Shown: positions 1-17,954, counted from the stretch's first letter. The stretch: DNA of 64,000 nt from Blastocatellia bacterium (GCA_035573895.1 DATLZR010000015.1:7387-71386), one strand, 5' to 3'. Notes: generated from the sequence alone by a model not told the origin. Program-made: numbers and translations.

Positions 1-1066
1 CCACCGCTCCTCCCCTGGCGAGAACCCGCTCGATAGCCCGGTCGAGAAGATTGGGAGTGGCTTCGAGCGCGCCCCCGCAGTAGAGGCATGCATGAGTGGC
101 CGCGTCCAGATAGAGGGCGCCACAGGCCGTACAGACGGAGCCCTGAAGCATCGAGTTCCTCGCATACAGGAGCCGCCAGACGCGCCCCTCCGAGACCGCC
201 TGAATCGTATCCGCGGCACCGACGGTCGCATTCCCTCCTTTATGGGCCGTCGTCACCAGTTTCTCAACAAGCTCCAGCTCTCTGTTTCGCTCAGTCGCCG
301 CCTCGATTTTCTGCACCTCGGCCAGAATGTCAGATACGGACGCGGTGATGGGAACCGAGATCGTCCCCACGACGCGCGACCGCAACGCCTTCGGCAGGAC
401 TCGCTGAAGCTCGCTCACGGCTTCAACCGTCCCGCCCAGCACTAACCGATCAAAGTGATACTGAGCCGCCAGCTCGGTCAGTTTTTCGGCGACGTTCTTG
501 ACATGACCGTGAACGTGTTGATCGTGGTGCCGCTGCAGGTTCTTCTGCGACCAGAGCCGATCGGTGCTCGTGGTCACAGTTCGTCGGGGCACCTCGTCGA
601 AGACCTGATGATGTTCCTCGACGTCGCCGAGGTAGACGGTGAACAATCGCGCCCGTTCCTTATCCACCAGCACGACGCCATAGCGCTCATACTCATCGAG
701 CGCCTCGACCAGCGGCTGATAGTACGGCGCAGGAGCGAACCGCGCCACCGAGGGAAGAATGATGGGAAGATCACGATCCCACCAGAATCCCCGACGGGAA
801 TCGCTGAAGATGACCAGACTCTTCTTCCGGGGGGTGTAGTCCCGGATAAAACGGAGAACCTTTTCCCGATTCGCTTCGAATTCCGAGCGAAGATGGTTGG
901 AGATGTCCCGTTCAACCTCTTTGAGGAGCTGAGTCGCCGTTCGCTCAAATCCTCGATTGAGATTACCCGGCTTGGACTGATCCACATCAAGATAGAGGCT
1001 GAGGACGTGACCCTCGCCCTCAGGTCCGTAACGCTGGAGCATTTCCAGATCCCTGTATGAAACCAT
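1..1066 (-). CDS. baeRF/eRF1-Pelota-like protein with C-terminal CxxC..CxxC zinc ribbon. The 3' end runs off the window start.
   Basis: I translated the minus strand myself from the ATG at 1066 (MVSYRDLEMLQRYGPEGEGHVLSLYLDV...). The ORF track omits it because it is open at the edge. The central segment YGVVLVDKERARLFTVYLG resembles the eRF1/Pelota domain-2 start. The C-terminus has CTACGALYLDAATHACLYCGG. The + strand ORF 455..1060 and the - strand ORF 574..1110 are its shadows. Confidence 0.5.
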   Translation of the reverse strand, partial: MVSYRDLEMLQRYGPEGEGHVLSLYLDVDQSKPGNLNRGFERTATQLLKEVERDISNHLRSEFEANREKVLRFIRDYTPRKKSLVIFSDSRRGFWWDRDLPIILPSVARFAPAPYYQPLVEALDEYERYGVVLVDKERARLFTVYLGDVEEHHQVFDEVPRRTVTTSTDRLWSQKNLQRHHDQHVHGHVKNVAEKLTELAAQYHFDRLVLGGTVEAVSELQRVLPKALRSRVVGTISVPITASVSDILAEVQKIEAATERNRELELVEKLVTTAHKGGNATVGAADTIQAVSEGRVWRLLYARNSMLQGSVCTACGALYLDAATHACLYCGGALEATPNLLDRAIERVLARGGAV

Positions 1067-1140
1067 TGTTCCCTCCTAACGTCGGTTGCTCTGGATTCCG
1101 GAGGAGACACCGATCGGCCCGCTGGGCCGACAGGTGGTCC

Positions 1141-2679
1141 TTACTCCGATTTTTCCTTCAGCCGCTCCACCGTGAACCGCCAGTACGTCACCGGGGTGCC
1201 CGGTGGGATGCCCGCTTTGCGCAACGCCAGCTCGATCTGCCTCTCCACCGTCGTAATTCCCGGCAGATCGGGCAGGAGCAATCCCCTCCGTCCGTCGGCG
1301 CTCTCCACAATCAATCCGTAACGCGAAGGATCGAGATCGTTCGGGCCCGCGACCCGCTCCGGCGGGGACAGCACATCAACCGAAAAGACCAACCGATCGA
1401 GTTCATCAGCAGTCACCGGAGGAAATCGAGGGTCAGCCGTTGCCGCCGACACGGCATTGTGAATGACTTCCTCGACAATGGTCTTGCGCGTCGGGTGAAT
1501 CGTTCCCACGCAGCCGCGCAATTCACCGTCGCGGGTCTTGATGCTGACGAAAACGCCCGACGGGCGCGCCCATCGTCCGCTGATGGGCTCCGGAGCCGGC
1601 ATGATCTTTCCCTGAGAGAGATAATAGGCGACCGATTGCCGGGCCATAGCAGGCAGATCAATCTCCGGTTGGGCTGCTGCCGCCGGTTCAGGAGCGGGAT
1701 CCAGGCCCGGCGACGCCGCCACGTCGCTTCGTTCCGTTCGATCGCCCTCGGCGGACGGCTCCTTTGATCCATTGTCCGAAGAAGAATAGTCGGCCAGTAC
1801 GGCCGCCATGTAGCCGACGCCGAACGGACCCTCGTAGGAAAAGACCTCCGTGCGATGGAGTTTCCGGCCGATGGCGCCATAGGCGATGAGCAGCGAACGA
1901 TAGATGTCCTCGCCGGCTTCCTCCCGCAGATCGGGATCAATGGCGAGAATCTTCTCGAAATCACCTTCTCGAAGAGCGGCGACGATGGCCTCGTCATAGA
2001 GATGGGCGCGTTCGCTGAACCCTGCGGGTGCATCCGGCTTCAGCCGATGACTCATGTCTCCACTGGCACAAATGGCCAGGCGGAGGTTCAATTGTGCAGC
2101 GGCATCAGCAATCGCCTCGCCAAAGCGGACATGCTCCCTCGCGGGCAAAAAGGAGAGTCCCACCACAGCTACCTTCGATGTCCACCCCGCTTTCACCAGA
2201 TAGTAGAGTGGAACCATCGTGCCGTGATCGAGTCGCCGACCGGCGGGAATAAGCCAGAGGGGAATGTTTCGCTCCTGGCACAGAGCGGCCAGCCGAGACA
2301 GCAAGACGAGGTCATTGCTGATGGTGAACTCCACCTCCGGGGCGCCGAAATCCCAGAAGTCGCCTCGCAATCGGGGTCCACTATAGGCGCTGAATGAACG
2401 AGGATCCAGCGGTGCATGAGGACTGATGATGACGACCGTATCCGGTCCAGAAGCTACCAGCCGCTGCATCATCCGCTCAACGCCGCGGACCGTCGCCATG
2501 CACTCGGCCAACCGGTCGCCTCCGATCTCCGGGACGATAATTGGCGGATGCGGCGAGACACCGGCAAATACGACAGCCGATCTCATAGGCCTGACCTCCT
2601 TGTTGAATCTCGGCGAGCGGCCTGCACTCGAACCCCTGCACCAGCGTCGTCGGCCCCCTCCGGCGACGACCGTCCTCAT
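1141..2679 (-). CDS. Fusion protein: N-terminal LigB/Memo-like class III extradiol dioxygenase fold plus C-terminal AMMECR1 domain
   Basis: 512 aa. The N-terminal half has LigB-family motifs (VVIISPHAPL, LDHGTMVPLYYL, ICASGDMSHRL). The C-terminal part has AMMECR1 hallmarks (SGVFVSIKTRDGELRGCVGTI, DPRFPPV). Its start overlaps the ftsH stop by 4 nt. Confidence 0.65.
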   Translation of the reverse strand: MRTVVAGGGRRRWCRGSSAGRSPRFNKEVRPMRSAVVFAGVSPHPPIIVPEIGGDRLAECMATVRGVERMMQRLVASGPDTVVIISPHAPLDPRSFSAYSGPRLRGDFWDFGAPEVEFTISNDLVLLSRLAALCQERNIPLWLIPAGRRLDHGTMVPLYYLVKAGWTSKVAVVGLSFLPAREHVRFGEAIADAAAQLNLRLAICASGDMSHRLKPDAPAGFSERAHLYDEAIVAALREGDFEKILAIDPDLREEAGEDIYRSLLIAYGAIGRKLHRTEVFSYEGPFGVGYMAAVLADYSSSDNGSKEPSAEGDRTERSDVAASPGLDPAPEPAAAAQPEIDLPAMARQSVAYYLSQGKIMPAPEPISGRWARPSGVFVSIKTRDGELRGCVGTIHPTRKTIVEEVIHNAVSAATADPRFPPVTADELDRLVFSVDVLSPPERVAGPNDLDPSRYGLIVESADGRRGLLLPDLPGITTVERQIELALRKAGIPPGTPVTYWRFTVERLKEKSE

Positions 2680-4553
2680 CCCGCCGGGGGTTGTACATCC
2701 CTTTCCGAGGCGGATCCGGTCGGTTCTTCCGCCTCCTGCAGCAGTCGCATGAGTTCCGCCCGATCCAGCGTCTCCCGAACCATCAATTCCTGAGCAATTC
2801 GCACCAACGCTTTTTCTCGCTGCACAAGCAGCGACCGCGCTCGATCATACGCCTGGGCGATGAGCCGGTTCACTTCGTCGTCAATGATCTGGGCCGTCTC
2901 CTCGCTGAAATCTCGCTCCTCGGCCGCCGGCAGAGGACCGCGCAGAAACTGGCCGTCGAGCGGGCGTCCGAACGTTCGCGGTCCCAAGCGCGTGCTCATG
3001 CCGAAACGCGTCACCATCTGCCGGGCGATTTCGGTTGCCTGCTCCAAATCGTTATGCACCCCGGTGGAGGACACCCCGAAGATCAGTTCCTCCGCCGCTC
3101 GCCCGCCCAGAAGCACGGCCAGGCGATCCTCGAGTTCCGACTTGGTGTAGAGATAGCGGTCGTCCGCCGGCAGTTGCAACGTAACGCCGAGCGCTCCAAT
3201 CGAGCGAGGGATGATCGTCACCTTGTGAACCGGATCGGCATGAGGCAGCGACAGCGCCACGAGCGCATGACCAACTTCATGATAAGCGACGCGTTCTTTG
3301 ATGGCCGGAGACATGGCACGATTCTTTTTCTCCAACCCGAGCATGACGCGGTCAATCGCCTCCTCAAAGTCGCGCATCTCGACCGCCTCCGAGCCTCGTC
3401 GGGCGGCCAGAAGCGCCGCCTCATTCACGATATTGGCCAGATCGGCACCCACCATCCCCGGCGTCCGCGCCGCCAGCACGCGGAAATCCACATCGGCCCC
3501 CACGCGAACCTTTCGGGCATGGACCTTGAGGATCTCCTCACGACCGGTTATATCCGGGCGATCTACGATGATGCGGCGATCAAATCGCCCGGCCCGGAGC
3601 AAGGCCGGATCCAGGATCTCCGGTCGGTTGGTCGCCGCCATGATGATGACGCCCTTGGAGGAATCGAATCCGTCCATTTCGACGAGGAGCTGATTGAGCG
3701 TCTGTTCCCGCTCATCATGCGCTCCGATGAAGGCTCCCCCGACGGCCCGCATCTTGCCGATCGCATCGAGTTCATCAATGAAGACGATGCAGGGGGCCTT
3801 TTTCTTGGCCTGCTCGAAGAGGTCGCGGACGCGCGCCGCCCCCACGCCGACGAACATCTCGACGAACTCCGATCCCGAAATCGAGAAAAACGGAACGCCC
3901 GCTTCCCCGGCCACCGCCCGCGCGAGCAGGGTCTTCCCCGTTCCCGGAGGTCCGACGAGCAGAACGCCTTTGGGGATGCGCCCGCCCAGGCGCTGGTACC
4001 GAGCGGGACTCTTCAAAAAATCCACGATCTCGACGAGTTCAGCCTTGGCCTCATCCACGCCGGCGACGTCGGCGAATGTGACGCGCTGGTCGCTGCTGGT
4101 GTCGTAAATTTTCGCCTTGCTGCGGCCAAAGGTCAGGACGCTACTGCCCCCCTGCGCCAGCCGCCTCATGCCATAGCCCCAAATCGCTCCCAAAATCAGC
4201 AGCGGCAGCACCCAGTAGAGGAAGAACTGCTCCAGCCAGGAAGTGCGCTCAATCACCCCGGAGAATTTCACCTGCCGTTCCTGCAGTTCCTTCAGCAATG
4301 ACGTCTCTTCTATGCCGGGAAGTCGAGTGGCGACCACCAGCCGATTCCCCTCCCGGAGGCGGGCGCGAATCTCACTCTCGCCGATCCAGACCTCCGCGAC
4401 TTTGCCGCTCCGAAGGTGATCGAGAAGTTCACTGTAGGGAATCGGGTGAGGACGAGGAAAGGGGCTGAACTGCTGGAGCGAGATCAGCAGTCCCACCGTG
4501 AGGATGAGATAAAAGATGTTGAAGACCCACTTTTGTCGCGTGGTCTTATCCAT
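2676..4553 (-). CDS. ftsH: ATP-dependent zinc metalloprotease FtsH
   Basis: 625 aa. N-terminal TM helices, AAA+ Walker [31 protein letters not shown] zinc motif. Confidence 0.95.
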
Positions 4554-4715
4554 CGTTCGATTCCGACACCGAGATCGCGCCCGACAAGCACTCCCCCGGA
4601 GTCAAGGACTGCACGCCGTCACTCGAGCTAATGCGTTGCCCGAAAGCCGGTCGGAAAAGCCGCCCCGCGAGGATTCCTTTCAGCGCCACTGCCGGCCTCT
4701 CACGCGGCGTTCACC

Positions 4716-5012
4716 TTAGGCCGCCTTGCGAAACTCCGGCTGACCGAACAGCTCTTCTTCGGTGATCTCGCGTCCGGTCTCTAAATCGGGATCGGCGCTA
4801 TCAACGAGGAAATAGCGTCGGTTGCCGGGAATGCGCCGTTCGATCCATTGGCGATTGAGAACGGCCGGGACGTAAACGATCAGATCGGGATTCGAATTTT
4901 TACTCCGTCGGACTCCCAGCTCGCTATCCCAGACGGCGATATAGGTGTGGCCTCCTCGCTCGAGGGTCAGGATGTCACCGTTGGCCCGTCGCAGGATGTA
5001 ATAGGTTGCCAT
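4716..5012 (-). CDS. Hypothetical small protein (99 aa) downstream of htrA
   Basis: Internal ATG at 5012 preceded by GGAGGGGG RBS (MATYYILRRANGDILTLERGGHTYIAVWD...). The longer track ORF 4716..5201 has a low-complexity N-extension overlapping htrA. No recognisable domain. Confidence 0.4.
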   Translation of the reverse strand: MATYYILRRANGDILTLERGGHTYIAVWDSELGVRRSKNSNPDLIVYVPAVLNRQWIERRIPGNRRYFLVDSADPDLETGREITEEELFGQPEFRKAA

Positions 5013-5175
5013 CGCTTGCCCCCTCCATCGCCTGAGATAATTATGGCCATCACCGAATCGAGACTTCGCGCGGTGACGACGATCACCCGCCCGCTGTCCA
5101 ACCTCAAATCCTCGTGAGAGAGGAACCCGAGGCGTCTCGGGCTCCTCCTCCCTGATACGCGAAGCGACATATCGC

Positions 5176-6792
5176 TCAACCGCGCGGGGCGATGTCCACA
5201 TAGCCAGTGCTGCCTGAGCGCGAGAAGTAGACGCGCAGCAGGGCCCGCCGTCGCCCGACCCGCGAGACAGCCTGACGAAACGCTTCCACCGATGTCACCG
5301 GCTGCCGATTCACTTCAATGATCACGTCGCCGGGTTGCAATCCGACTTCGGCCGCGGGGCTGTCCGGGTCAATATCGCTGATGATCACACCGGTGATGCT
5401 TCGAGGAATATCAAAGCGATTGCGCAGCGAGGGCGTCAGCTCATCCACGGCGATTCCACTGAGCGTATTCCCGCTGTCATTGGATTCCGGCATGCGGCTC
5501 ACCCGCTCCGCCGGTCGCTCACCAAGCTCCACCGTCACTTTTTGTTCGCGCCCGTTACGGATGAGCGTGAGCGTCACCCGCGTTCCCGGCGGCGTCAATC
5601 CCACCATGTTTTTCAGGTGATCGGCGTCGTTGACGCGCTGTCCGTTGAACTCAATGATGACATCGCCGTTGCGGATTCCCGCGCGATCGGCCGGTCCATC
5701 CGGCACGACATTTCCCACGAGTGCTCCCCGGCGATCCTTCAACTCGAATTGCTCGACCATCCCTTCGGTCAGGTTCTGGATCTCCACTCCGAGATACCCG
5801 CGAACGACCTTGCCATACTTGAGAATGCGGTCCATCACCTCGCGGGCCATATTGATGGGAATGGCGAACCCGACGCCGGCATTGGCCTGTATGCCGCGCG
5901 TGAAGATGGCCGTGTTAATGCCGATCAACTCGCCCCGCATGTTGACCAGAGCGCCACCGGAATTCCCCGGATTGATCGCCGCGTCCGTCTGAATGAAATC
6001 GCCATACTCGGCAATTCCCAGGTTTCCGCGACCGGTCGCGCTAATGATGCCAAAGGTGACCGTTTGCTGTAACTCCCGCCGAAACGGATTCCCGATGGCG
6101 ATGACGAAATCGCCCACCTGCACCCGCGACGAATCACCCAGGGTGATGGCCGGAAGCTTCTGGGCGTCAATCTTCAGCACAGCGACATCACTTTGAGGAT
6201 CCGTTCCGACGACGCGCGCTTTGAAAACACGCTGATCGGCCAGCCGCACGGTGACCTCTGTCGCTCCCTCGACCACGTGATTGTTGGTCAGAATGTAGCC
6301 ATCCGGACTCACGATCACGCCCGATCCGAGCCCTTCCTGCGTATATTCGCGGGGTTGACGGGGAGTGCCGAAAAATCGGCGGAAGAAGGGATCGTCGAAA
6401 AAGAAATCAATCCCTTGAGATCGCACCCTTGACTTGGTCTCGATGCTGACGACGGAGTCGCGCACAGCCCGGACGACCGGGCCGAGACCTTCGGTGAGCG
6501 ATACGTTGCCCATACTGGAGCCGGAGGCCACGGGCGCACCGCTGGCGAGATAAATGGGCACGCGGGAATCGTTGCGAGGAAATGGCGCCCAGGACGTCCA
6601 CGCCGTGAGGATCGAGCCCATCACCGCACCAATGAGAAGCAGGAGAGTGACTCCCGCCCCCAGGCGCACGCGCCGATCTCTCAGCCACCATCCGGGGGAC
6701 CACCCCCGGCGACTCGAGGCAACCGTGGACCGGTCGAACTCGGCCGCAGTCGGTTGTAGCGAAGCGTCGGGTTTGACATTCATCGTTTCCAT
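5176..6792 (-). CDS. htrA: HtrA/DegP-family periplasmic serine protease with two PDZ domains
   Basis: 538 aa. TM/signal region, trypsin-like motifs GYILTNNHVVEGA and GNSGGAL, two C-terminal PDZ-like segments. Confidence 0.9.
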   Translation of the reverse strand: METMNVKPDASLQPTAAEFDRSTVASSRRGWSPGWWLRDRRVRLGAGVTLLLLIGAVMGSILTAWTSWAPFPRNDSRVPIYLASGAPVASGSSMGNVSLTEGLGPVVRAVRDSVVSIETKSRVRSQGIDFFFDDPFFRRFFGTPRQPREYTQEGLGSGVIVSPDGYILTNNHVVEGATEVTVRLADQRVFKARVVGTDPQSDVAVLKIDAQKLPAITLGDSSRVQVGDFVIAIGNPFRRELQQTVTFGIISATGRGNLGIAEYGDFIQTDAAINPGNSGGALVNMRGELIGINTAIFTRGIQANAGVGFAIPINMAREVMDRILKYGKVVRGYLGVEIQNLTEGMVEQFELKDRRGALVGNVVPDGPADRAGIRNGDVIIEFNGQRVNDADHLKNMVGLTPPGTRVTLTLIRNGREQKVTVELGERPAERVSRMPESNDSGNTLSGIAVDELTPSLRNRFDIPRSITGVIISDIDPDSPAAEVGLQPGDVIIEVNRQPVTSVEAFRQAVSRVGRRRALLRVYFSRSGSTGYVDIAPRG

Positions 6793-6892
6793 GTTTCACT
6801 CCTTCCGTCATCGAAGAATTTCGGCCAGCTCCTCCGATGCGATTGGCTGCCGGCCCTTGATGTTATGACGTTCTCCCGCACACCCGATCGGG

Positions 6893-9541
6893 CTATTCGC
6901 TGGCGACCGGAGCGGCGGCCCGCTCAGTCGAAAAGACCAATCTTCCGCCGTCATAATCCACCGTGACACGGGAATTATCGCGCACCTCTCCCTGCAAGAC
7001 CAGCTTGGCCAGAGGATTCTCCAGCTCGCGTTGAATGACCCGCTTGAGCGGACGGGCCCCGAAGACCGGATCGTACCCGACGCGCGCCAGCCACTCCCGG
7101 GCGGCATCGGTCACGTGGAGCGCGATCTGCCGGTCACTCAGCCGCTGCTGCAACCGGCGAAGCTGAATCTCGACGATCTCTTTGAGATGGTCCTCGGTCA
7201 ACGCATGAAAGACGACGATCTCGTCCACCCGGTTGAGGAACTCGGGCCGGAAGGTTCGCCGAAGTTCCGCCAGAACCGTCTCCTTCATCCGCTCGTACCG
7301 ATCGCCGCTGGCGGCGCCACGATATTCGAGGATGAGATTGCTGCCGATGTTGGAGGTCATGATGATGATGGTGTTCTTGAAATCAACCGTGCGACCGTGA
7401 CTGTCGGTCAGCCGCCCATCGTCGAGAATTTGCAAGAGCAGATTGAAGACATCCCAGTGGGCCTTCTCGATCTCGTCAAAGAGGACGACCGAATAGGGAC
7501 GCCGTCGAACCGCTTCGGTCAATTGCCCGCCCTCCTCGTAGCCGACGTAGCCGGGCGGCGCTCCGATCAGGCGAGCGACCGAATGCTTCTCCATGTACTC
7601 GGACATGTCAATGCGAATGAGCGCCCGTTCATCATCGAAGAGCGACTCGGCCAGCGCGCGGGCCAGCTCCGTTTTCCCCACGCCGGTGGGACCGAGGAAA
7701 ATGAAACTGCCGATGGGCCGATTGGGATCTTTCAATCCGGCGCGCGCCCGACGCACGGCCTCGGCCACGGCGCTCACGGCTTCGTCCTGGCCGACGATCC
7801 GGCGATGCAGTTCCTCCTCCAGGCGGAGCAACTTTTGAATCTCCCCTTCGAGGAGCTTGCTCACCGGGATGCCCGTCCAGCGACTGACGACCTCGGCGAT
7901 GTCTTCCTCATCCACTTCTTCCTTGAGTAATCGCGTTCCCCCGCGCTGCTCGACCAGCTCGGTGAGGGCTTTCTCGCTCTCTCGAATCTTCCTCTCCAGC
8001 TCGACGAGTCGTCCGTACTTCAATTCGGCCGCCCGATTCAGATCATACGCCCGCTCCGCTTGTTCGATGAGGATCTTCGTCTCCTCGACCTGCTCACGGA
8101 GCTGGCGAAGATCGGCGATGATTTTCTTCTCCTGCTCCCATTGAGTTTTGAGCCCATCGGCCTGGACGCGCAATTCGGCCAGCTCTTCTTCGAGCTTGCG
8201 CAACCGTTCCCGCGAAGCGGCATCCGTCTCCCGCTTCAATCCCTCGCGCTCGATTTCCAGTTGCATGATGCGCCGGAGGATCTCGTCCAGCTCCGACGGC
8301 ATCGAGTCAATTTCCGTACGCAGCCGCGCGGCCGCTTCATCCACCAGATCAATGGCTTTATCCGGGAGAAAACGATCGGAGATATAGCGGTTGCTCAGGA
8401 CGGCGGCCGCGACCAGAGCGGAATCCTTGATCCGCACGCCATGATGCACCTCGTAGCGTTCCTTCAGGCCGCGAAGGATCGAGATCGTATCTTCAACGCT
8501 CGGCTCCCCCACGAGGATGGGTTGGAAGCGTCGCTCTAGCGCGGCATCCTTCTCGATGTACTTGCGGTACTCGTCCAGAGTGGTCGCGCCGATGCACCGC
8601 AGCTCGCCGCGCGCCAGCATGGGCTTGAGGAGATTTCCCGCATCCATCGTGGCTCCTTCCGCCCGACCGGCTCCGACGACCGTGTGCAACTCGTCAATGA
8701 ACAGGATGATCTCTCCCTGCGACTCCTGAACCTCGCGCAAAACCGCCTTGAGCCGTTCCTCAAATTCGCCGCGATACTTGGCCCCGGCGATCAATGCGCC
8801 CATGTCGAGCTGGACGACCCGCTTGTGTTTGAGCCCTTCGGGGACATCGCCTCGAATGATGCGCTGAGCCAGTCCTTCAACAATCGCCGTTTTCCCCACG
8901 CCGGGCTCACCGATGAGGACGGGATTGTTTTTCGTCCGGCGGGAGAGAACCTGCATCACCCGACGAATCTCCTCGTCCCGTCCGATGACAGGATCGAGCT
9001 TCCCCTGACCGGCTAACTGCGTGAGATCGCGCCCGTAGCGTTCGAGCGCCTGATAGGTCGCTTCGGGCGTGGGACTGGTGACGCGCTGCGTCCCGCGAAT
9101 TTGCAGCAGGGCTTTCATCAAACGATCGCGCGTCAGACCCGCCTCAGCGAGAATACGGCCCGCCGCTGTCGCTCGCCCCTCCTCCACCATGGCGAGGAGA
9201 ACATGCTCGACGCTGATGTACTCGTCGCGGAACTTCTTCGCCTCATCCTCGGCCGCCACAAACAACCGATTGAGTCGCCCCGTGAGATAAACCTGATCCG
9301 GTCCGGCGGCCGGTCCGCTCACTTTCGGCCAGCGGGCCAGTTCCTGCTCCAACCGGGTGATCACCTGAGCCGGATCAACGCCCGCCCGTTGCAGGATCGT
9401 GGGAGCCAGACCACCTTCCTGCTGCAGCAACGCGAGCAACAGATGCTCCACGTCAATGTGCTGATGGCTATAGCGAGCGGCGATCGCTTGAGCCGCACGA
9501 ATTCCATCCTGAAGCTTTTCCGTCATTCGGTTGATGTCCAT
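6893..9541 (-). CDS. clpB: Chaperone ClpB (Hsp100 disaggregase)
   Basis: 882 aa. Clp N-domain, two AAA+ modules ([15 protein letters not shown] and [15 protein letters not shown]), long coiled-coil M-domain. Confidence 0.95.
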
Positions 9542-9544
9542 AGG

Positions 9545-10483
9545 TTACTTCACCCCATTTGATCGCGGATTGAACTTCGATTCCCGAGCCAACTGCTCGA
9601 AGAGTTTCCGTTCGGCGGCCGTTGGACGCGGCGGGACGACGATCTTCACTTCGACGTATTGGTCCCCCCGGCCTCCCCGACGACGCGTCAGACCCTGACC
9701 GCGCAGCCGGAGCTTTTGCCCCGTTTGCGCTCCCGGAGGCAGACTTACCTCCGCCATTCCATCGAGCGTCGGCACGAGAATTTTCGCTCCCAGGACAGCC
9801 TCCCAGGGCGTCACCGGCACCTCCGTGTACAGATCATCGCCGGAGACTTTGAAGATGGGATGCGGCTGGAGTTTCACCCGGAGATAAAGATCGCCCGCCA
9901 TACCTCCGGCCTGTCCGCCCTGGCCGGCAAGCCGGATGACAGAACCATCGCGGACGCCCGCCGGAATCTTCACTTCCAGCGACTTTCCCGTCGGGAGCGT
10001 TAAGCGTCGCGTCGTTCCCCGATGAGCTTCTTCGAGCGAGAGTTCAATCTCCATCTCCACGTCAGCAGCGCGACTTCCCCAGCGCGTTGTTGTTGACGGC
10101 CCCGCGTGGCGTCCTGCCGGGCGACCTCGCAACCCACCAAAGAGCGTCTCAAAGAAATCGCTGAAGCCGCCGGGCATACCGGTGAAGAAATCGAAATCGC
10201 CAAAATCGAGGCGAATCCGCTCCCACCCCGGCGGAGGCGTGAACTCGCTGCCCGCTTTCCAGTTGGGGCCGAGGCGATCATAAAGCTCCCGCTTTTTCGG
10301 ATCGCCGAGGACCTCGTAGGCTTCGTTGATCTCCTTGAACTTCTCCTCCGCCGCCTTGTCACCGGGGTTAACGTCCGGATGGTACTTCCGCGCGAGCCGA
10401 CGGTAAGCCGCTTTGATCTCTTCCTGGCTGGCTGTCCGTGGCACGCCGAGGATTTGATAGTAGTCTTTGTAGGTGACGGCCAT
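9545..10483 (-). CDS. cbpA: J-domain co-chaperone, CbpA-type (DnaJ homolog lacking the Cys-rich zinc finger)
   Basis: 312 aa. N-terminal J domain (DYYQILGV...KYHPD), then Gly/Phe-like linker and two C-terminal beta domains. No CxxCxGxG repeats. Sits 4 nt upstream of clpB. Confidence 0.75.
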
Positions 10484-10571
10484 CGCCTTCGATCACCCAG
10501 CACACCGTGGTTGAGAAAGTCAACTTGTCAACAACGCCCCTCCACGCACAGGGAGAGGATCTGGCCCTTCA

Positions 10572-11054
10572 TTATCCTCGCCAGCTCAGCATCTGGATCA
10601 ACTCCGAACGAGCCAGATTCTCCTCCCGGCGAGCGGCACTCAGCTCCGCCACCGCCCGCTGGTACTGTTCCCGCAACTTCTCCGGGACACGAGGTCCGGC
10701 ATCCCGCGCCTGACAGTTCAAATCGCGGACCCGTTCGAGCGCCTCCCGGACCCGCTCGCGAGCCGCCAACAACCGCCGCATGAGACGGGCTAACACCTCC
10801 TGCCGCGTCTCGTAGCGGTAGGCAGCCTCTTCCTCCTCTTCCTCATACCCCTCTTCAGGAAGGTAGGCGGACTCCGCAGCCACTTCCTGAGCAACGGCCT
10901 GAGGCTCCTCCTCGACGTACTCCTCGACGGCTTCCTCGCCGTAGTAGTCGGCGTCGTCGTAGGGTTCGAGCGCTTCCGTGTAATCCTCGAGCGGCGCCGG
11001 TTCGACCGGTGCGACTTCCGGTTCCTCAACCTGATTTTTCTTTCGTCGTGGCAT
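10572..11054 (-). CDS. Acidic Glu/Tyr-rich protein with basic coiled-coil C-terminus (hypothetical), between dnaK and cbpA
   Basis: I chose the internal ATG at 11054 (MPRRKKNQVEEPEV...), preceded by a GGAGGG RBS. The longer track ORF would overlap the dnaK 3' end. No GrpE-like beta domain. Confidence 0.45.
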   Translation of the reverse strand: MPRRKKNQVEEPEVAPVEPAPLEDYTEALEPYDDADYYGEEAVEEYVEEEPQAVAQEVAAESAYLPEEGYEEEEEEAAYRYETRQEVLARLMRRLLAARERVREALERVRDLNCQARDAGPRVPEKLREQYQRAVAELSAARREENLARSELIQMLSWRG

Positions 11055-11085
11055 TCGTGATTTTCCCTCCTCTCTTGTTGAAATT

Positions 11086-12975
11086 TCAGTTGCTCGGCTT
11101 AAATTCGGCATCAATGACATCATCGGACGATGTGCTGGAACCGGACGATCCCGAAGCTCCCGCACCTGCCGATGTCGCTTGACTATAGGCAGCCGCTGCA
11201 ATCGCATGAGCGACCTGCTGGAGGTCGGACGTCAGTTGACGAATTCGCTCAATTCCCGCCTCCTCTTTGATGGCCTGACGAATCTGGCTGATGAGATCTT
11301 CGGCGCGAGCGCGTTCGTGAACCGGAACCTTGTCGCCCAGGTCGCGCAAAGTCCGCTCGACCTGATAGGCCAGACTGTCGGCTTGATTGCGCGCCTCGAC
11401 CAGCTCGCGCTTCCTCTTGTCCTCTTCGGCATACATCTGAGCGTCCCGGATCATGCGCTCGATCTCTTCCTTGGAGAGCTGGGTCGAGCCGGTGATGGTG
11501 ATCTTTTGCTCCCGACCCGTCGCTTTATCCCGCGCGGTCACATTGAGAATTCCGTTGGCATCAATGTCGAAAGTCACCTCGATCTGAGGGATGCCGCGAG
11601 GAGCCGGAGCGATTCCCTCCAGCCGGAACCGACCGAGCGTGCGATTGTCCCGAGCCATCTCGCGCTCTCCCTGAAGAACGTGGATGTCCACGGCCGTTTG
11701 ATTGTCCTCAGCAGTGGTGAAGATCTCCGTGCGACGGACGGGAATCGTCGTGTTCCGCTCGATGATGCGGGTCATCACACCACCGAGGGTCTCAACGCCG
11801 AGACTGAGCGGCGTCACGTCGAGCAGCAAGACTTCCTTCACCTCTCCGGCCAGGACGCCCGCCTGAATCGCTGCGCCAACAGCGACCACCTCATCGGGAT
11901 TGACCGATTGATTCGGCTCCTTGCCCAGCAGCCGACGGACGAGTTGCTGGACGGCGGGCATGCGGGTCGCTCCTCCGACGAGGATCACCTCGTCAATCTG
12001 ATTCTCGGACAATTTCGCATCGGCCAGGGCTTGCTTGACCGGTCCCACGCATCGCTCGACGAGATCGGCCGTGAGCTGTTCGAATTTCGAGCGCGTCAGC
12101 TTCATCTCCAGGTGCTTCGGTCCGTACGCATCGGCCGTGATGAAGGGAAGACTGATGGTCGTCTCCATCACCGACGACAGCTCGATCTTCGCTTTCTCCG
12201 CCGCTTCGGTCAGCCGCTGCAGCGCCTGGCGATCCTTGCGCAGATCAATGCCGTGCTCGCGCAAAAATTCTTCGGCCATCCAGTCAACGATCCGCTTGTC
12301 AAAATCGTCCCCGCCAAGATGCGTATCGCCGCTGGTGGCCTTCACCTCGAACACCCCATCTCCCACCTCCAGGATGGAGACATCGAAGGTTCCGCCTCCC
12401 AGATCGAAGACGAGGATCGTCTCGTTCTTCTTCTTGTCCAGTCCATAGGCCAATGCCGCGGCCGTCGGTTCGTTGATGATTCGCAGCACATTCAGACCAG
12501 CGATCTTGCCCGCATCGCGCGTGGCTGAGCGCTGGGCATCATTGAAATAGGCCGGCACGGTGATGACGGCATCGGTGACCTTCTCGCCGAGGTAGCGCGA
12601 CGCCTCATCGGCCAGTTTCCGCAAGACCATGGCGGAAATCTCCTCGGGGGCGTAGAGCTTGCCCATCACCTCAAACCGAACAGCATCGTTCGGCCCGGGA
12701 ACGACCTTGTAGGGGACGTTCCGAATCTCGCTGGTGACCTCGGTGTAGCGTCGCCCGATGAACCGTTTCACCGAATAGAGGGTGTTCTCCGGGTTCAAGA
12801 TCGCCTGACGCTTGGCGAGTTGCCCGACCAACCGCTCGCCCGTCTTGGTGAAGGCGACGACCGATGGCGTCGTCCGCCCCCCCTCGCTGTTGACGATCAC
12901 GGTCGGTTTTCCTCCCTCCATGATCGCCACCACGGAGTTTGTCGTTCCTAGATCAATGCCAATTGCCTTCGCCAT
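11086..12975 (-). CDS. dnaK: Molecular chaperone DnaK (Hsp70)
   Basis: 629 aa. [27 protein letters not shown], typical Hsp70 substrate-binding and lid regions. GAGGAGG RBS. Confidence 0.97.
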
Positions 12976-13024
12976 CGTGGTTCCTCCTCACTGAGGTTGA
13001 TCTCCAAGGCCCTGACCGGAAGCC

Positions 13025-13267
13025 TCACGTCGCCCCTCGCGTCGAACGCGACTTCCGGCTCACCGGCTTCTCACTCGCGGGCCTCTCATAGGGAATTCTG
13101 TCGTGAATGAGTTCCTTGAAGGCTTGATTTATCGCCCAGGAAACTCCCGGAGCATCCTGGTGCCGCACCAACTGCTTCGCTCGCTTGGAAACGAGCGTGC
13201 AGATTAAATAGCGGCTGTCCATTTTCGCAATAGCCTCCTCGACGAGCTGTTCTCTCGTGTCAGCCAT
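13025..13267 (-). CDS. rpoZ: DNA-directed RNA polymerase omega subunit-like protein
   Basis: 80 aa. KMDSRYLICTLVSKRAKQL matches the RpoZ core (xxNRFxLVxxAAKRARQL). Strong RBS AGGAGGAG. Confidence 0.55.
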   Translation of the reverse strand: MADTREQLVEEAIAKMDSRYLICTLVSKRAKQLVRHQDAPGVSWAINQAFKELIHDRIPYERPASEKPVSRKSRSTRGAT

Positions 13268-13336
13268 AACTCACTCCTCCTACTTTCGTCCTCCGACTCG
13301 GTTATATCCCCGCGCCTTGCAGGCCACCCTGAGCCA

Positions 13337-13343
13337 TTATACA
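13337..13343 (-). promoter_or_regulatory. Consensus TATAAT (TGTATAAT) at the hsp20 stop codon: possible internal promoter for rpoZ-dnaK
   Basis: The minus strand reads CATGTATAATGG, overlapping the hsp20 TAA stop. A perfect -10 hexamer in a 65% GC background. The -35 candidate is weak (TTCGGA). Confidence 0.25.
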
Positions 13344-13780
13344 TGATTCCCCTCCCCAGTCCGAACCGGAATACGACGGCGTCGCTTGGGCACCCGCAAA
13401 AGCAAAATGCCATCGTTCAGCTCCGCGCTGATCCGGGTGGGATCAACATCTTCGGGAAGCAGAAAGGTCCGAGAAAAATCCCCATACGGCCATTCAATGT
13501 GACGCAAGCGCGCCTTCTGCCATGGCCCCACCAGACGGCGGCCGTCAATGGTTAACTTCCTCCCTTCAACCTTAACCTGAAGGGATTCCCGGTCAACTCC
13601 GGGAAGGTCAACCATAACGGCCATCTCCTCGTCCCCAATGAAGATATTGGCAGGAGGGGAAAATCCTGCAGTATCCGACTGCACCCGGCGCTGTGACACG
13701 CCGGCGAACCACTGATCAGTCCTCACAAGCCGTACGCTTGCGAGATCCTCGACCGGATGAATGCTCTGAACTTTGACCAT
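13337..13780 (-). CDS. Hsp20/alpha-crystallin family small heat shock protein
   Basis: 147 aa. Alpha-crystallin domain pattern (MVDLPGVDRESLQVKVEGRKLTIDG...AELNDGILLLRVPK). Confidence 0.85.
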   Translation of the reverse strand: MVKVQSIHPVEDLASVRLVRTDQWFAGVSQRRVQSDTAGFSPPANIFIGDEEMAVMVDLPGVDRESLQVKVEGRKLTIDGRRLVGPWQKARLRHIEWPYGDFSRTFLLPEDVDPTRISAELNDGILLLRVPKRRRRIPVRTGEGNHV

Positions 13781-13832
13781 CGCTCGGCACCTCTACACGC
13801 TGATCTACTTAAGCCGATCTGTAGAATAAAAT

Positions 13833-13851
13833 ATGAGTCCCATTTTGTCAA
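13833..13851 (-). promoter_or_regulatory. HAIR-like operator overlapping the hsp20 promoter (-35 TTGACA)
   Basis: Minus-strand reading TTGACAAAATGGGACTCAT. The TTGACA doubles as a -35, with a TATTCT-like -10 17 nt downstream. Lies in the AT-rich 217-bp intergenic region. Confidence 0.5.
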
Positions 13852-13933: not shown

Positions 13934-13954
13934 CTTGACAAAAAGAGACTCACA
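13934..13954 (+). promoter_or_regulatory. HAIR-like operator (CTTGACA-N7-ACTCACA) overlapping the hspR promoter
   Basis: Matches CTTGAGT-N7-ACTCAAG at 10/14 positions. Near-identical to the inverted copy at 13833..13851 (TTGACAAAA.G.GACTCA shared). The TTGACA serves as a -35, with a TAGCAT-like -10 downstream. Confidence 0.5.
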
Positions 13955-13997
13955 TATTAGCATAAGGACGGCCTTTCGAGATGGGAGGTGCCAAACA

Positions 13998-14483
13998 ATG
14001 CGGGGCGTGAGCAAAAAGCGAAAAGAAAAAGGATACACCATTAGCGCCGTGGCCGAAGCCTATGGGATTCACCCTCAAACTCTTCGGCTCTACGAACGCC
14101 ATGGCTTGCTCAAGCCGTCCCGCTCCAAAGGGAATACCCGCTACTATTCGGAAGCCGACCTTCGCTCCCTGGAGCTGATCCTGACGTTGACCCGAGATCT
14201 GGGCGTCAATCTCGCGGGTGTGGAAGTGATTCTCAACATGCGGCGGAAGATGGATGCCTTACAGAAGGAAGTGCAGCGATTCATCGAGTACTTACGGGCG
14301 GAGGTTGGAGAACGATTGGCCAATCAGGCAGCCGCCAAGTTTGCGCTTGTCCCCCTGGGACAGACGCCGATAGTCACGATCGAGGAGGACCGGTCGGCGA
14401 TCTTCGAGGGAGATGCGACCCTAGTAGAGGAAGACAATCATACATCGAAAGGAGGTGAGATCTTATTAGCAAAGAAGACATGA
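13998..14483 (+). CDS. hspR: MerR-family heat-shock repressor, HspR-like
   Basis: I chose the ATG at 13998 ([40 protein letters not shown]...), preceded by a GGGAGG RBS. MerR HTH plus coiled-coil. The longer track ORF starts at 13920. The stop overlaps infA. Confidence 0.7.
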
Positions 14484-14689
14484 TTCCTGTTGACGCGACC
14501 GTCATCGAGGCGCTCCCCAATGCGACATTCCGGGTGAAGCTCGATGGCAATGGTCACGAAGTTTTGGCCCATCTCTCGGGCAAAATGAGGAAGAACTACA
14601 TTCGAGTCCTGCCGGGAGACCGAGTTCAAGTAGAGCTGTCACCCTACGATTTAACACGCGGACGGATCACCTACCGGTACAGCAAGTGA
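14480..14689 (+). CDS. infA: Translation initiation factor IF-1
   Basis: 69 aa with an S1-like OB fold ([50 protein letters not shown]). ATGA overlap with the hspR stop. Confidence 0.95.
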
Positions 14690-17865: not shown

Positions 17866-17954
17866 TGGCGCCTGCAATAAGGTGGGTTTGAGTGAGAAAA
17901 CCTGAGACAATCCACCTTAAACGCGAAAAATTGAACGAACGAGGGATTTCGGGA

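What the first reader, a model, noticed from the sequence alone, without database searches (positions are those of the whole stretch)
1..13780. 13.8-kb single-strand proteostasis supercluster
All on the minus strand, in order: hsp20, rpoZ-like, dnaK, acidic ORF, cbpA-type J-protein, clpB, htrA, ORF99, ftsH, LigB-AMMECR1 fusion, baeRF-like. Several junctions show 4-nt overlaps (cbpA/clpB, ftsH/fusion). This is an unusually complete co-localisation of chaperones and quality-control proteases with two uncharacterised partners.
Basis: seen in the sequence. Interest (0 to 1): 0.5.

Follow-up and report, generated by a model that had tools for sequence, protein, structure and literature searches.

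The report
HspR heat-shock super-operon with Balon-like factor
The eleven genes are real and kept together in related hot-spring acidobacteria, and they most likely form one long heat-shock operon under an HspR-type repressor that combines chaperones, proteases and a Balon-like ribosome-silencing factor; this is a richer version of known operons, not a new kind of system.

Summary
The gene list and order are correct. All eleven genes lie on the minus strand and their family assignments hold. The two claimed 4-nt overlaps do not hold. The last gene runs off the window edge (378 aa in full), and five more same-strand genes follow it in the source contig.

An HspR-like MerR gene, fused 4 nt to infA, lies divergent from hsp20. 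Between them are two back-to-back sigma-70-type promoters, each overlapped by a HAIR-like site (cTTGACA-N7-ACTCATAT).

The order omega–dnaK–acidic ORF–J-protein–clpB–htrA–ORF98–(ftsH)–fusion–baeRF10 is kept in at least 12 related contigs, including bacterium HR10 and Blastocatellia MAGs. The same operator heads J-protein–clpB–ORF98–baeRF10 operons in distant soil loci.

The "baeRF-like" gene is baeRF family 10. Its best match by sequence and by fold is the mycobacterial hibernation factor Balon. Balon genes in Hsp20/DnaK/DnaJ operons are already published.

The LigB–AMMECR1 fusion is an AmmeMemoRadiSam A/B protein. It is linked to chaperones only in this lineage.

Verdict: a real, conserved, unusually large HspR-type heat-shock operon, and a new variant of a known kind. 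ORF98 as a baeRF10 partner and the AMMECR1 link are the new leads.

The parts
2..1066 (-). baeRF family-10 (Balon-like aeRF1 homologue). The 3' end is cut by the window edge; the full protein is 378 aa.
   Evidence: PF18854, 140 bits. Full gene seen in L001/L002. The family profile hits Balon MSMEG_1130 (8v9j) at E=1e-28 over its full length. The AF2 model has pLDDT 87; its best Foldseek hit is 8v9l_z Balon at E=4e-25. There is no NIKS motif and no loop GGQ; a Zn-ribbon is formed by C312, C315, C327 and C330.
1141..2586 (-). LigB/Memo-like + AMMECR1 fusion (AmmeMemoRadiSam protein A/B), 481 aa.
   Evidence: PF02900, 142 bits, and PF01871, 148 bits. TIGR04335, 127 bits, above the cutoff of 99. 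The start at 2586 is supported by the Shine-Dalgarno site, gene callers and homologues. The RGCxG and DxRF motifs are invariant (PMC2034487).
2676..4553 (-). ftsH membrane AAA+ Zn protease.
   Evidence: TIGR01241, 800 bits, above the cutoff of 600. Present in most relatives but absent in L083, L086, L088, L089 and L095.
4716..5012 (-). ORF98, a small conserved protein of unknown function that partners with baeRF10.
5176..6792 (-). htrA/DegP-type serine protease with two PDZ domains and an N-terminal membrane anchor or signal.
   Evidence: TIGR02037, 501 bits, above the cutoff of 416. Pfam Trypsin_2 plus two PDZ domains.
6893..9541 (-). clpB disaggregase (canonical type).
   Evidence: TIGR03346, 1410 bits, above the cutoff of 1232. 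The ClpG/ClpK models score 836 bits against a cutoff of 1900.
9545..10483 (-). CbpA-type (class II, no zinc finger) J-domain co-chaperone.
   Evidence: PF00226 plus PF01556. The best NCBIfam models are DnaJ and curved-DNA-binding protein, all below their cutoffs.
10572..11054 (-). Acidic ORF (160 aa): basic tip MPRRKK, a variable acidic tract, and a conserved ~80-aa helical C-terminus.
   Evidence: No family or PDB hit. It is always directly upstream of the J-protein in lineage relatives, even where dnaK is missing. It is not GrpE.
11086..12975 (-). dnaK (Hsp70).
   Evidence: TIGR02350, 1015 bits, above the cutoff of 823.
13025..13267 (-). RNA polymerase omega-like protein (80 aa).
   Evidence: PF01192, 31.7 bits, above the cutoff of 26. 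The PDB hits are all RNAP omega subunits, E=0.01-0.05. It is the first gene after the promoters in L083, L086, L089 and L095.
13336..13343 (-). Extended -10 element TGTATAAT overlapping the hsp20 stop codon; a candidate second promoter for omega-dnaK.
   Evidence: Read from the sequence. An equivalent TGTGTATAAT is conserved upstream of omega in L086, L089 and L095. Function is inferred.
13337..13780 (-). hsp20 small heat-shock protein, first gene of the run.
   Evidence: PF00011, 67 bits.
13823..13851 (-). Promoter TTGACA-17-TATTCT for hsp20, overlapped by the HAIR-like operator TTGACAAAATGGGACTCATAT (13831-13851).
   Evidence: The motif is conserved in relatives and in soil loci.
13935..13963 (+). 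Promoter TTGACA-17-TAGCAT for hspR-infA, overlapped by the HAIR-like operator TTGACAAAAAGAGACTCACAT (13935-13955).
   Evidence: The same divergent pair of sites occurs in L086, L089 and L095.
13998..14483 (+). hspR-like MerR-family regulator (161 aa from the ATG with a GGGAGGTG Shine-Dalgarno site).
   Evidence: PF13411, 66.6 bits. NF047375 HspR, 100.9 bits against a cutoff of 105. It is divergent from the chaperone run here and in L086, L089 and L095.
14480..14689 (+). infA (IF-1), overlapping the hspR stop codon by 4 nt.
   Evidence: PF01176, 95.9 bits. The hspR-infA pairing, or a divergent infA, is conserved in 15 loci.

Best explanation
The region is one large heat-shock (proteostasis) operon of a Blastocatellia-type acidobacterium, controlled by an HspR-type repressor.

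Control. hspR, co-transcribed with infA, lies divergent from hsp20. Two back-to-back sigma-70-type promoters are each overlapped by a HAIR-like site (cTTGACA-N7-ACTCATAT). By analogy with Streptomyces and Helicobacter HspR, the repressor occupies these sites at normal temperature, probably helped by DnaK. It leaves them when unfolded proteins titrate DnaK. That de-represses both hspR-infA and the long transcript starting at hsp20.

Content of the transcript. It supplies holdase (Hsp20), refolding and disaggregation (DnaK, a CbpA-type J-protein, ClpB), envelope and membrane proteolysis (HtrA, FtsH), and a Balon-like aeRF1 homologue (baeRF10). I infer that baeRF10 occupies the ribosomal A site to pause and protect ribosomes during proteotoxic stress.

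Other members. ORF98 is a dedicated small partner of baeRF10; it has a small alpha/beta fold with weak Tic22-like similarity. Omega, the acidic ORF, ftsH and the Memo/LigB-AMMECR1 fusion were added in this lineage only.

Shown: gene identities, conserved order, the conserved operator, and the baeRF10-Balon relationship.
Inferred: HspR binding, heat induction, a single transcript, ribosome binding by baeRF10, and the roles of ORF98 and the fusion.
For: Gene families.

Operon-like packing. Gaps in the window are 3-163 nt. Terminator-like hits are no more frequent than in shuffled sequence and are not placed in intergenic regions. In relative L084, fifteen consecutive genes have gaps of 65 nt or less.

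Conserved order. The order holds in L003, L083-L086 and L088-L096, with fusion identity of 50-79%.

Independent recurrence. Of 43 distant baeRF10 loci (<50% identity) with at least 1.5 kb of upstream sequence, 28 carry a chaperone or protease homologue on the same strand within 8 kb: clpB 21, J-protein 18, ORF98 13, htrA 5, hsp20 4. For example, L138 reads infA | dnaJ-clpB-ORF108-baeRF10-clpP-hsp20-lon.

Operator. TTGAC-N9-CTCATAT has 20 exact sites in 2.13 Mb of loci against 0.25 expected. Every site lies 32-98 nt upstream of hspR or the first chaperone gene, or about 300-365 nt upstream of omega across a leader. None occurs in the 79 fusion-anchored loci. It matches the published HAIR consensus CTTGAGT-N7-ACTCAAG at CTTGA..N7..CTCA (PMC6102357). 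The HspR model scores 100.9 bits against a cutoff of 105.

baeRF10. It is closest to Balon by sequence (E=1e-28) and by fold (E=4e-25), and lacks NIKS and a loop GGQ. In L102 an HPF/S30AE gene sits directly upstream of baeRF10. Published work places Balon genes in stress operons with Hsp20, DnaK and DnaJ (PMC10901736).
Against: - There are no expression data. Co-transcription and heat induction are inferred from sequence only.
- The 100-163-nt gaps around htrA, ORF98 and ftsH could hide internal promoters. An extended -10 element upstream of omega suggests at least one more start site.
- The HspR score is just below the curated cutoff. The operator matches HAIR at only 9-10 of 14 positions, and part of it is simply a -35 box.
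- baeRF10 is far below the cutoffs of the curated Balon-type models: 84-101 bits against 320-480.
- baeRF10 keeps a Zn-ribbon where Balon has its EF-Tu-binding hairpin. It also keeps a conserved Ser-Gln that Burroughs and Aravind took as a sign of possible hydrolase activity in family 10 (PMC6514570).
- The run continues into apparently unrelated genes (PIG-L, CutA1, HU, HIT, TPR). Co-linearity alone therefore does not prove a shared function.
Confidence: 0.65

Rival explanations
1. The run is inherited gene order only. It consists of several independent transcription units (for example hsp20; omega-dnaK-acidic-J-clpB; htrA; ORF98-ftsH; fusion-baeRF10-PIG-L...) that happen to be neighbours in one lineage. 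Only the first units are heat-regulated.
For: The window has gaps of 100, 163 and 162 nt before htrA, ORF98 and ftsH. These intergenic sequences are not conserved among relatives, and some contain GC-rich hairpins. A second promoter-like element lies upstream of omega. The run continues into housekeeping-type genes. ftsH, dnaK, clpB and hsp20 come and go between relatives.
Against: In relatives the same junctions shrink to 19-65 nt. No intrinsic terminators are found at gene ends. Distant acidobacterial loci rebuild similar same-strand units (J-clpB-ORF98-baeRF10-clpP-hsp20-lon) behind a single operator, with gaps from -4 to 122 nt. That pattern argues for selection on co-expression of baeRF10 with chaperones.
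Confidence: 0.2
2. baeRF10 is not a passive hibernation factor but an active release or rescue factor. Under this reading it is a heat-shock-induced peptidyl-tRNA hydrolase (Vms1/aeRF1-like) that frees nascent chains from stalled ribosomes, handing them to DnaK/ClpB or to proteases. ORF98 would act as an adaptor.
For: Family 10 was singled out as keeping a conserved glutamine and a constrained catalytic loop (PMC6514570). S173/Q174, D169, R179, H184 and H188 are invariant or nearly so. It keeps the ancestral Zn-ribbon of aeRF1. Archaeal aRF1 is its third-best fold hit, after two Msmeg1130 Balon entries. NCBI names some members Vms1/Ankzf1-family hydrolases. It is tightly linked to ClpB, the J-protein and proteases.
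Against: No GGQ occupies the loop position; that position reads T-G/S-x-D. The conserved Gln aligns with a Gln of M. smegmatis Balon, which is described as a non-catalytic hibernation factor. In the AF2 model Q174 sits at the start of a helix, not at the loop tip. The best sequence and fold matches are Balon.
Confidence: 0.13
3. The cluster is a horizontally acquired stress-tolerance island of the tLST / locus-of-heat-resistance type: a MerR-like regulator with sHsp20, a Clp disaggregase, FtsH and DegP.
For: The size (~14 kb) and functional mix resemble tLST: a MerR-like gene, sHsp20, a Clp ATPase, FtsH and DegP (PMC8290217). Soil variant L112 also carries HdeD-like, Usp and thioredoxin-type genes.
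Against: ClpB is canonical, not ClpG/ClpK. DnaK and a J-protein are present, while YfdX, KefB, Trx and PsiE are absent from the window cluster. GC content matches the rest of the window. No mobile-element genes were seen. The essential gene infA is a conserved divergent neighbour across distant loci, which indicates old chromosomal synteny.
Confidence: 0.02

Closest known systems
HspR/HAIR heat-shock regulons (Streptomyces dnaK-grpE-dnaJ-hspR, clpB and lon; Helicobacter cbpA-hspR-rarA)
   Same: A MerR-family HspR-like repressor lies next to a dnaK/J-protein operon and appears autoregulated. An inverted-repeat operator overlaps the promoter and matches HAIR at CTTGA-N..-CTCA. ClpB, the J-protein and, in soil variants, Lon are targets.
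   Different: hspR is divergent and fused to infA instead of being the last operon gene. There is no grpE in the operon. One unit carries 11 to 16 genes, including HtrA, FtsH, omega, a Balon-like factor and a Memo-AMMECR1 enzyme. The operator arms are degenerate (…GACA / …CATA). Binding is untested.
Balon ribosome hibernation factors (Psychrobacter Balon, Msmeg1130, Rv2629) and their stress operons
   Same: An aeRF1-like three-domain protein without NIKS or GGQ. Its best sequence and fold match is Msmeg1130 Balon. It is encoded in stress operons with Hsp20/DnaK/DnaJ, and in one relative next to an HPF/RaiA-type gene.
   Different: It belongs to a separate family (baeRF_family10) and is far below the curated Balon-type model cutoffs. 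It has an intact Zn-ribbon in place of the EF-Tu beta-hairpin, no evident HP motif, and a dedicated small partner, ORF98. The tight link to ClpB is not mentioned in the Balon paper.
[quoted passage not shown]
   Same: A roughly 14-19-kb block that unites a MerR-like regulator, sHsp20, a Clp disaggregase, FtsH and DegP for protein quality control.
   Different: The window cluster is chromosomal and syntenic with infA. It has canonical ClpB plus DnaK/J rather than stand-alone ClpG/K. It has no YfdX/KefB/Trx/PsiE modules and no mobility genes, and it carries extra translation-related genes.
AmmeMemoRadiSam system (AMMECR1 + Memo/LigB-like + radical SAM)
   Same: The AMMECR1 domain passes TIGR04335, and the catalytic RGCxG/DxRF motifs are kept. 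It is fused to a LigB-superfamily domain, as noted in 2007. Homologues are followed by the TIGR04337 radical SAM gene in 24-29 of 79 genomes.
   Different: No radical SAM partner lies in the 64-kb window or in the lineage loci. The N-terminal half of the window protein does not reach TIGR04336. In this lineage only, the gene sits between ORF98/ftsH and baeRF10 in a heat-shock operon.
Thermus thermophilus dnaK-grpE-dnaJ-dafA-clpB operon (from my own knowledge, not checked here)
   Same: A thermophile operon that joins DnaK, a J-protein, a small lineage-specific assembly factor and ClpB.
   Different: No homology between DafA and the acidic ORF or ORF98 was tested or found. The Thermus operon has no proteases and no Balon-like gene.

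Membership tests
HspR regulon (HspR repressor + HAIR operator) | MerR-type HTH protein matching the HspR equivalog model | tested here: inconclusive
   NF047375 scores 100.9 bits against a cutoff of 105. PF13411, PF13591 and PF00376 are all above their cutoffs.
HspR regulon (HspR repressor + HAIR operator) | HAIR inverted repeat CTTGAGT-N7-ACTCAAG in target promoters | tested here: inconclusive
   The strict consensus with up to 3 mismatches gave no relevant hit. A degenerate form, cTTGACA-N7-(A/G)CTCATA, is strongly conserved at the promoters: 20 sites against 0.25 expected.
HspR regulon (HspR repressor + HAIR operator) | Regulator linked to, and autoregulated with, dnaK/cbpA/clpB heat-shock genes | tested here: met
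   hspR is divergent from the chaperone run with its own copy of the site, here and in L086, L089 and L095.
HspR regulon (HspR repressor + HAIR operator) | Repressor binds the operator; de-repression on heat shock; DnaK feedback | not testable with these tools
   Needs EMSA or footprinting and expression data.
Balon-type ribosome hibernation factor | aeRF1-like three-domain fold, closest to solved Balon structures | tested here: met
   The profile hits 8v9j_z at E=1e-28 over residues 4-377. The AF2 model hits 8v9l_z at E=3.9e-25 with TM 0.58, and also P. urativorans Balon and Rv2629.
Balon-type ribosome hibernation factor | Absence of the NIKS and GGQ motifs | tested here: met
   None of the 22 family members has NIKS, and none has GGQ in the loop. 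The four GGQ strings are in the C-terminal domain.
Balon-type ribosome hibernation factor | [quoted passage not shown] | tested here: not met
   A CxxC...CxxC Zn-ribbon occupies the insertion site, while Msmeg1130 has no Cys there. No conserved His-Pro is present; the conserved N-domain motif is DxDQSK..NLNRGF.
Balon-type ribosome hibernation factor | Passes a curated family model (MSMEG_1130, Rv2629 or AOC03_06830 families) | tested here: not met
   Scores are 83.8, 59.5 and 37 bits against cutoffs of 480, 320 and 330, and 101 bits for the soil homologue. It belongs to Pfam baeRF_family10 instead.
Balon-type ribosome hibernation factor | Binds the ribosomal A site and inhibits translation under stress | not testable with these tools
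   Needs ribosome binding assays or cryo-EM.
AmmeMemoRadiSam system | Protein A (AMMECR1 domain, TIGR04335) | tested here: met
   127 bits against a cutoff of 99. The RGCxG and DxRF motifs are invariant.
AmmeMemoRadiSam system | Protein B (Memo-like, TIGR04336) | tested here: inconclusive
   The window protein shows only LigB (PF02900, 142 bits) and no TIGR04336 hit at E<=0.01. Homologue P0024 (48% identical) passes with 31.7 bits against a cutoff of 26.
AmmeMemoRadiSam system | Associated radical SAM enzyme (TIGR04337) | tested here: not met
   There is no homologue in the 64-kb window or in the lineage loci. It is present next to the fusion in other phyla. The rest of the genome could not be searched.
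tLST / locus of heat resistance | ClpG/ClpK-type stand-alone disaggregase | tested here: not met
   NF033606 and NF033607 score 836 bits against a cutoff of 1900. Canonical ClpB TIGR03346 passes.
tLST / locus of heat resistance | YfdX, HdeD, Trx, KefB and PsiE-like modules, and a mobile-island context | tested here: not met
   None of these is among the cluster genes. GC content is uniform. A conserved infA neighbour is present.

The most novel reading that the evidence does not exclude
ORF98 and baeRF10, joined in the hot-spring lineage by the Memo/LigB-AMMECR1 enzyme, form a heat-shock-induced module that acts on the ribosome and is mechanistically coupled to ClpB/DnaK-J and the proteases. 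In this reading baeRF10, which keeps a Zn-ribbon and a conserved Ser-Gln, acts as an active rescue or release factor on heat-stalled ribosomes, a bacterial counterpart of Vms1-type ribosome quality control. ORF98 acts as its adaptor. AMMECR1 modifies or repairs rRNA or tRNA. That would give the first functional context for the AMMECR1 family.
Probability: 0.12. Interest if true: 0.7.

Novelty: new variant of a known kind. Interest (0 to 1): 0.4.

Why it matters
If correct, one repressor-controlled transcript in these thermophilic acidobacteria coordinates four things: protein holding and refolding, disaggregation, envelope and membrane proteolysis, and shutdown of translation. This is a compact natural example of coupling proteostasis to ribosome hibernation.

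It also yields three concrete, testable leads.
1. A phylum-wide acidobacterial heat-shock operator.
2. A small unannotated protein family (ORF98) that travels with family-10 Balon-like factors and ClpB.
3. A rare genomic hint that the enigmatic AMMECR1/Memo enzymes (AMMECR1 is a human disease gene) may act in stress or ribosome biology.

None of this overturns current views. Balon in stress operons and HspR regulons are both established.

Tried and rejected
- A strict HAIR search with up to 3 mismatches found only two irrelevant sites at chance level. The real sites have four mismatches and were found by eye and then by pattern.
- My first regex for the operator had the wrong spacing and gave only noise. 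It was corrected.
- Rfam found nothing in the window or in the long leader of relative L086.
- The acidic ORF is not a divergent GrpE: BLASTP E=0.14 against a real GrpE from L088. It has no Pfam, NCBIfam or PDB match.
- A radical SAM partner of the fusion was searched for in the window and not found.
- tLST/LHR membership was rejected.
- ORF98 has no PDB sequence match. The afdb50 fold library was unavailable. No literature mentions the top fold hit TTHA0547. The Balon paper's held supplements mention neither Thermus, Acidobacteria nor ClpB.
- A more distant ORF98-family member, P0283, is not next to a baeRF gene, so the pairing is not universal for the family.
- One 1600-aa 'hit' to the ORF98 profile is an EF-hand repeat protein and is spurious.
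- I looked for internal promoters conserved across relatives in the cbpA, htrA, ORF98 and fusion upstream regions. None was evident.

Full report
**What is there.**
- hsp20, 13337-13780
- an Rpb6/omega-like 80-aa protein, 13025-13267
- dnaK, 11086-12975
- a 160-aa acidic ORF, 10572-11054
- a class-II (CbpA-type) J-protein, 9545-10483
- canonical clpB, 6893-9541
- htrA/DegP, 5176-6792
- a 98-aa ORF, 4716-5012
- ftsH, 2676-4553
- a LigB+AMMECR1 fusion, 1141-2586
- a baeRF_family10 gene, 2-1066, that runs off the window

**Corrections to the observation.** Two details are wrong. cbpA and clpB are separated by 3 nt rather than overlapping. The ftsH/fusion ATGA overlap depends on an upstream ATG that is unlikely to be the start. 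The ATG at 2586 has an AAGGAGG Shine-Dalgarno site, is the start called on two independent assemblies, and is where homologues begin.

Source contigs recovered by exact protein look-up show that baeRF10 is 378 aa. The same strand continues with PIG-L, CutA1, HU, HIT and a TPR protein.

Upstream of hsp20 on the other strand lies a MerR-family gene (13998-14483). It scores 100.9 bits on the HspR equivalog model, whose cutoff is 105. Its stop codon overlaps infA (IF-1, 14480-14689) by 4 nt.

The 217-nt spacer holds the only two strong sigma-70-type promoters of the first 15 kb. They point outward: TTGACA-17-TATTCT toward hsp20 and TTGACA-17-TAGCAT toward hspR. Each is overlapped by TTGACA-N7-ACTCA(T/C)AT. 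The published HAIR consensus is CTTGAGT-N7-ACTCAAG (PMC6102357). The sites here agree at CTTGA…N7…CTCA.

An extended -10 element (TGTATAAT, 13336-13343) overlaps the hsp20 stop codon. It has a conserved counterpart upstream of omega in relatives. A second start site is therefore likely.

No intrinsic terminators stand out. GC content is uniform across the window.

**Synteny, anchored on the fusion.** The fusion has more than 5,700 homologues. In 78 species genomes where it is 39-48% identical, no homologue of any cluster gene lies within 10 kb on either side. These genomes include Pyrinomonadaceae, other Blastocatellia, Bacillota, Chloroflexota and Verrucomicrobia. There the usual neighbours are gyrB/recF or the AmmeMemoRadiSam radical SAM gene, which scores 341 bits on TIGR04337.

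In the closer lineage (50-79% identity) the whole order is kept. This lineage includes bacterium HR10/HR08 and MAGs named Blastocatellia or Acidobacteria. The order is hspR (divergent) | omega–dnaK–acidic–J–clpB–htrA–ORF98–(ftsH)–fusion–baeRF10.

The variants are informative:
- L083 lacks ftsH.
- L086 and L095 lack dnaK, clpB, ftsH and hsp20, yet keep omega–acidic–J–htrA–ORF98–fusion–baeRF10.
- L088 lacks ORF98 and ftsH.

In L084, fifteen consecutive genes have gaps of 65 nt or less.

**Synteny, anchored on baeRF10.** A profile scan of metagenomes returned 80 loci, mostly from soil and only 38-47% identical. Of the 43 distant loci with at least 1.5 kb of upstream sequence, 28 have a chaperone or protease homologue on the same strand within 8 kb: clpB 21, J-protein 18, ORF98 13, htrA 5, hsp20 4. 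The fusion never appears.

A local profile search finds an ORF98-like gene directly upstream of baeRF10 in 18 of 61 such loci, and nowhere else in them. Examples:
- L138: infA | dnaJ–clpB–ORF108–baeRF10–clpP–hsp20–lon.
- L102: hsp20–ClpP-like protease–ftsH–HPF(S30AE)–baeRF10 … clpB–hsp20.
- L112: DsbA–clpB–TrxR–Usp–Hsp20–HdeD–htrA–baeRF10.

The widely conserved core is therefore J-protein/ClpB/(HtrA)/ORF98/baeRF10. Omega, the acidic ORF, ftsH and the fusion are additions specific to this lineage.

**The operator is conserved far beyond the lineage.** TTGAC-N9-CTCATAT occurs 20 times in the 2.13 Mb of fetched loci, against 0.25 expected. In L086, L089 and L095 it appears as divergent pairs between hspR and the cluster. 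In 14 soil loci it appears as a single site 46-98 nt upstream of the first chaperone gene. It is absent from the 79 fusion-anchored loci.

infA is the divergent neighbour in 15 loci. That argues for old chromosomal synteny and against a mobile island.

**Identity of the unknowns.**

*baeRF10.* The family profile matches M. smegmatis Balon (8v9j) at E=1e-28 over its full length, ahead of eRF1 at about 1e-9. An AF2 model (pLDDT 87) finds Balon structures first: 8v9l_z at E=3.9e-25, along with P. urativorans Balon and Rv2629. aRF1/eRF1 and Pelota follow.

Like Balon, it lacks NIKS and a loop GGQ. Unlike Balon, it keeps a CxxC…CxxC Zn-ribbon where Balon has its EF-Tu hairpin, and it fails the curated Balon-family models by a wide margin. 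Burroughs and Aravind flagged family 10 as possibly catalytic. However, the conserved Gln aligns with a Gln of the non-catalytic Msmeg Balon, and the model places it at the start of a helix.

*Acidic ORF.* It has a conserved helical C-terminus, always precedes the J-protein, and is not GrpE.

*Fusion.* It keeps the predicted AMMECR1 active-site motifs RGCxG and DxRF (PMC2034487). It has no radical SAM partner in the window.

**Interpretation.** The best-supported reading is an HspR-type, autoregulated heat-shock super-operon that adds a Balon-like ribosome factor and its small partner to chaperones and proteases. The gene identities, the conserved order, the operator and the Balon relationship are shown. 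Repressor binding, heat induction, single-transcript status and ribosome binding are inferred.

The rivals are:
- inherited neighbourhood with several separate transcription units;
- a catalytically active rescue factor instead of a hibernation factor;
- a tLST-like island, which is rejected because ClpB is canonical and not ClpG/K, infA synteny is conserved and tLST modules are absent.

**Novelty.** Balon genes in Hsp20/DnaK/DnaJ stress operons (PMC10901736), baeRF–HPF linkage (PMC6514570), HspR/HAIR control of dnaK, clpB, lon and cbpA, and AMMECR1–dioxygenase fusions are all published.

Four things appear new:
- the size and completeness of the unit;
- a conserved acidobacterial operator;
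- the tight ClpB–ORF98–baeRF10 linkage, given that ClpB is not mentioned in the Balon paper;
- the lineage-specific recruitment of omega and Memo–AMMECR1, together with the hspR–infA fusion.

I rate it a new variant of a known kind, of moderate interest.

Noticed in passing
window 14480-14689 (+); L086, L089, L095, L107-L110, L115, L118, L124, L127, L136, L138, L147: infA (IF-1) overlaps the hspR stop codon by 4 nt, so it is probably co-transcribed from the operator-bearing promoter. In soil loci infA alone lies divergently 230-450 nt upstream of the chaperone-baeRF10 operon. Both IF-1 and Balon-like factors act at the ribosomal A site; whether this pairing has functional meaning is unknown.
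   Followed up: partly
L086:5764-6065, L095:4182-4557, L089:928-1251: In relatives without hsp20, a non-coding leader of about 300-365 nt separates the operator-bearing promoter from omega. It ends in a conserved hairpin and a second, extended -10 promoter (TGTGTATAAT). Rfam finds no known RNA family there.
   Followed up: partly
window 34422-35993 (-): A second HtrA/DegP paralogue (523 aa, 41% identical to the cluster copy) lies elsewhere in the window. The cluster copy may therefore be a stress-specific duplicate.
   Followed up: no
window 17892-19700 (+): Ribosomal protein S1 (six S1 domains) lies about 3 kb beyond hspR-infA. This is another translation gene close to the cluster.
   Followed up: no
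L102:5440-6516: An ORF that fuses an HPF/RaiA-type S30AE domain to a sigma-70 region-4 domain sits directly upstream of baeRF10, in a soil-type stress cluster headed by the same operator.
   Followed up: no
L089 intergenic regions (7844-7982, 9490-9626, 9919-10004): The intergenic spacers of this relative's operon are filled with short repeated CTGAC(N)ACTGAC-like units (REP-like elements) that are absent from the window.
   Followed up: no
L088:9745-17344 (- strand): In one relative a second, convergent stress cluster lies just downstream of baeRF10: M48 peptidase-GrpE-GroEL-ClpC-like ATPase ... Smr.
   Followed up: no
window 2-1066 (-), residues 29-40 of baeRF10: The most conserved N-domain motif of family 10 is DxDQSK..N-L-N/K-R-G-F. 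The N-L-K/N-R stretch looks superficially like the aeRF1 NIKS stop-codon motif. I could not align the N-domains to test whether it occupies the same loop.
   Followed up: no
window 14692-15456 (-): A SIR2-family deacetylase next to hspR-infA is also found beside the MerR/infA pair in relative L086. This extends the conserved synteny beyond the operon.
   Followed up: no
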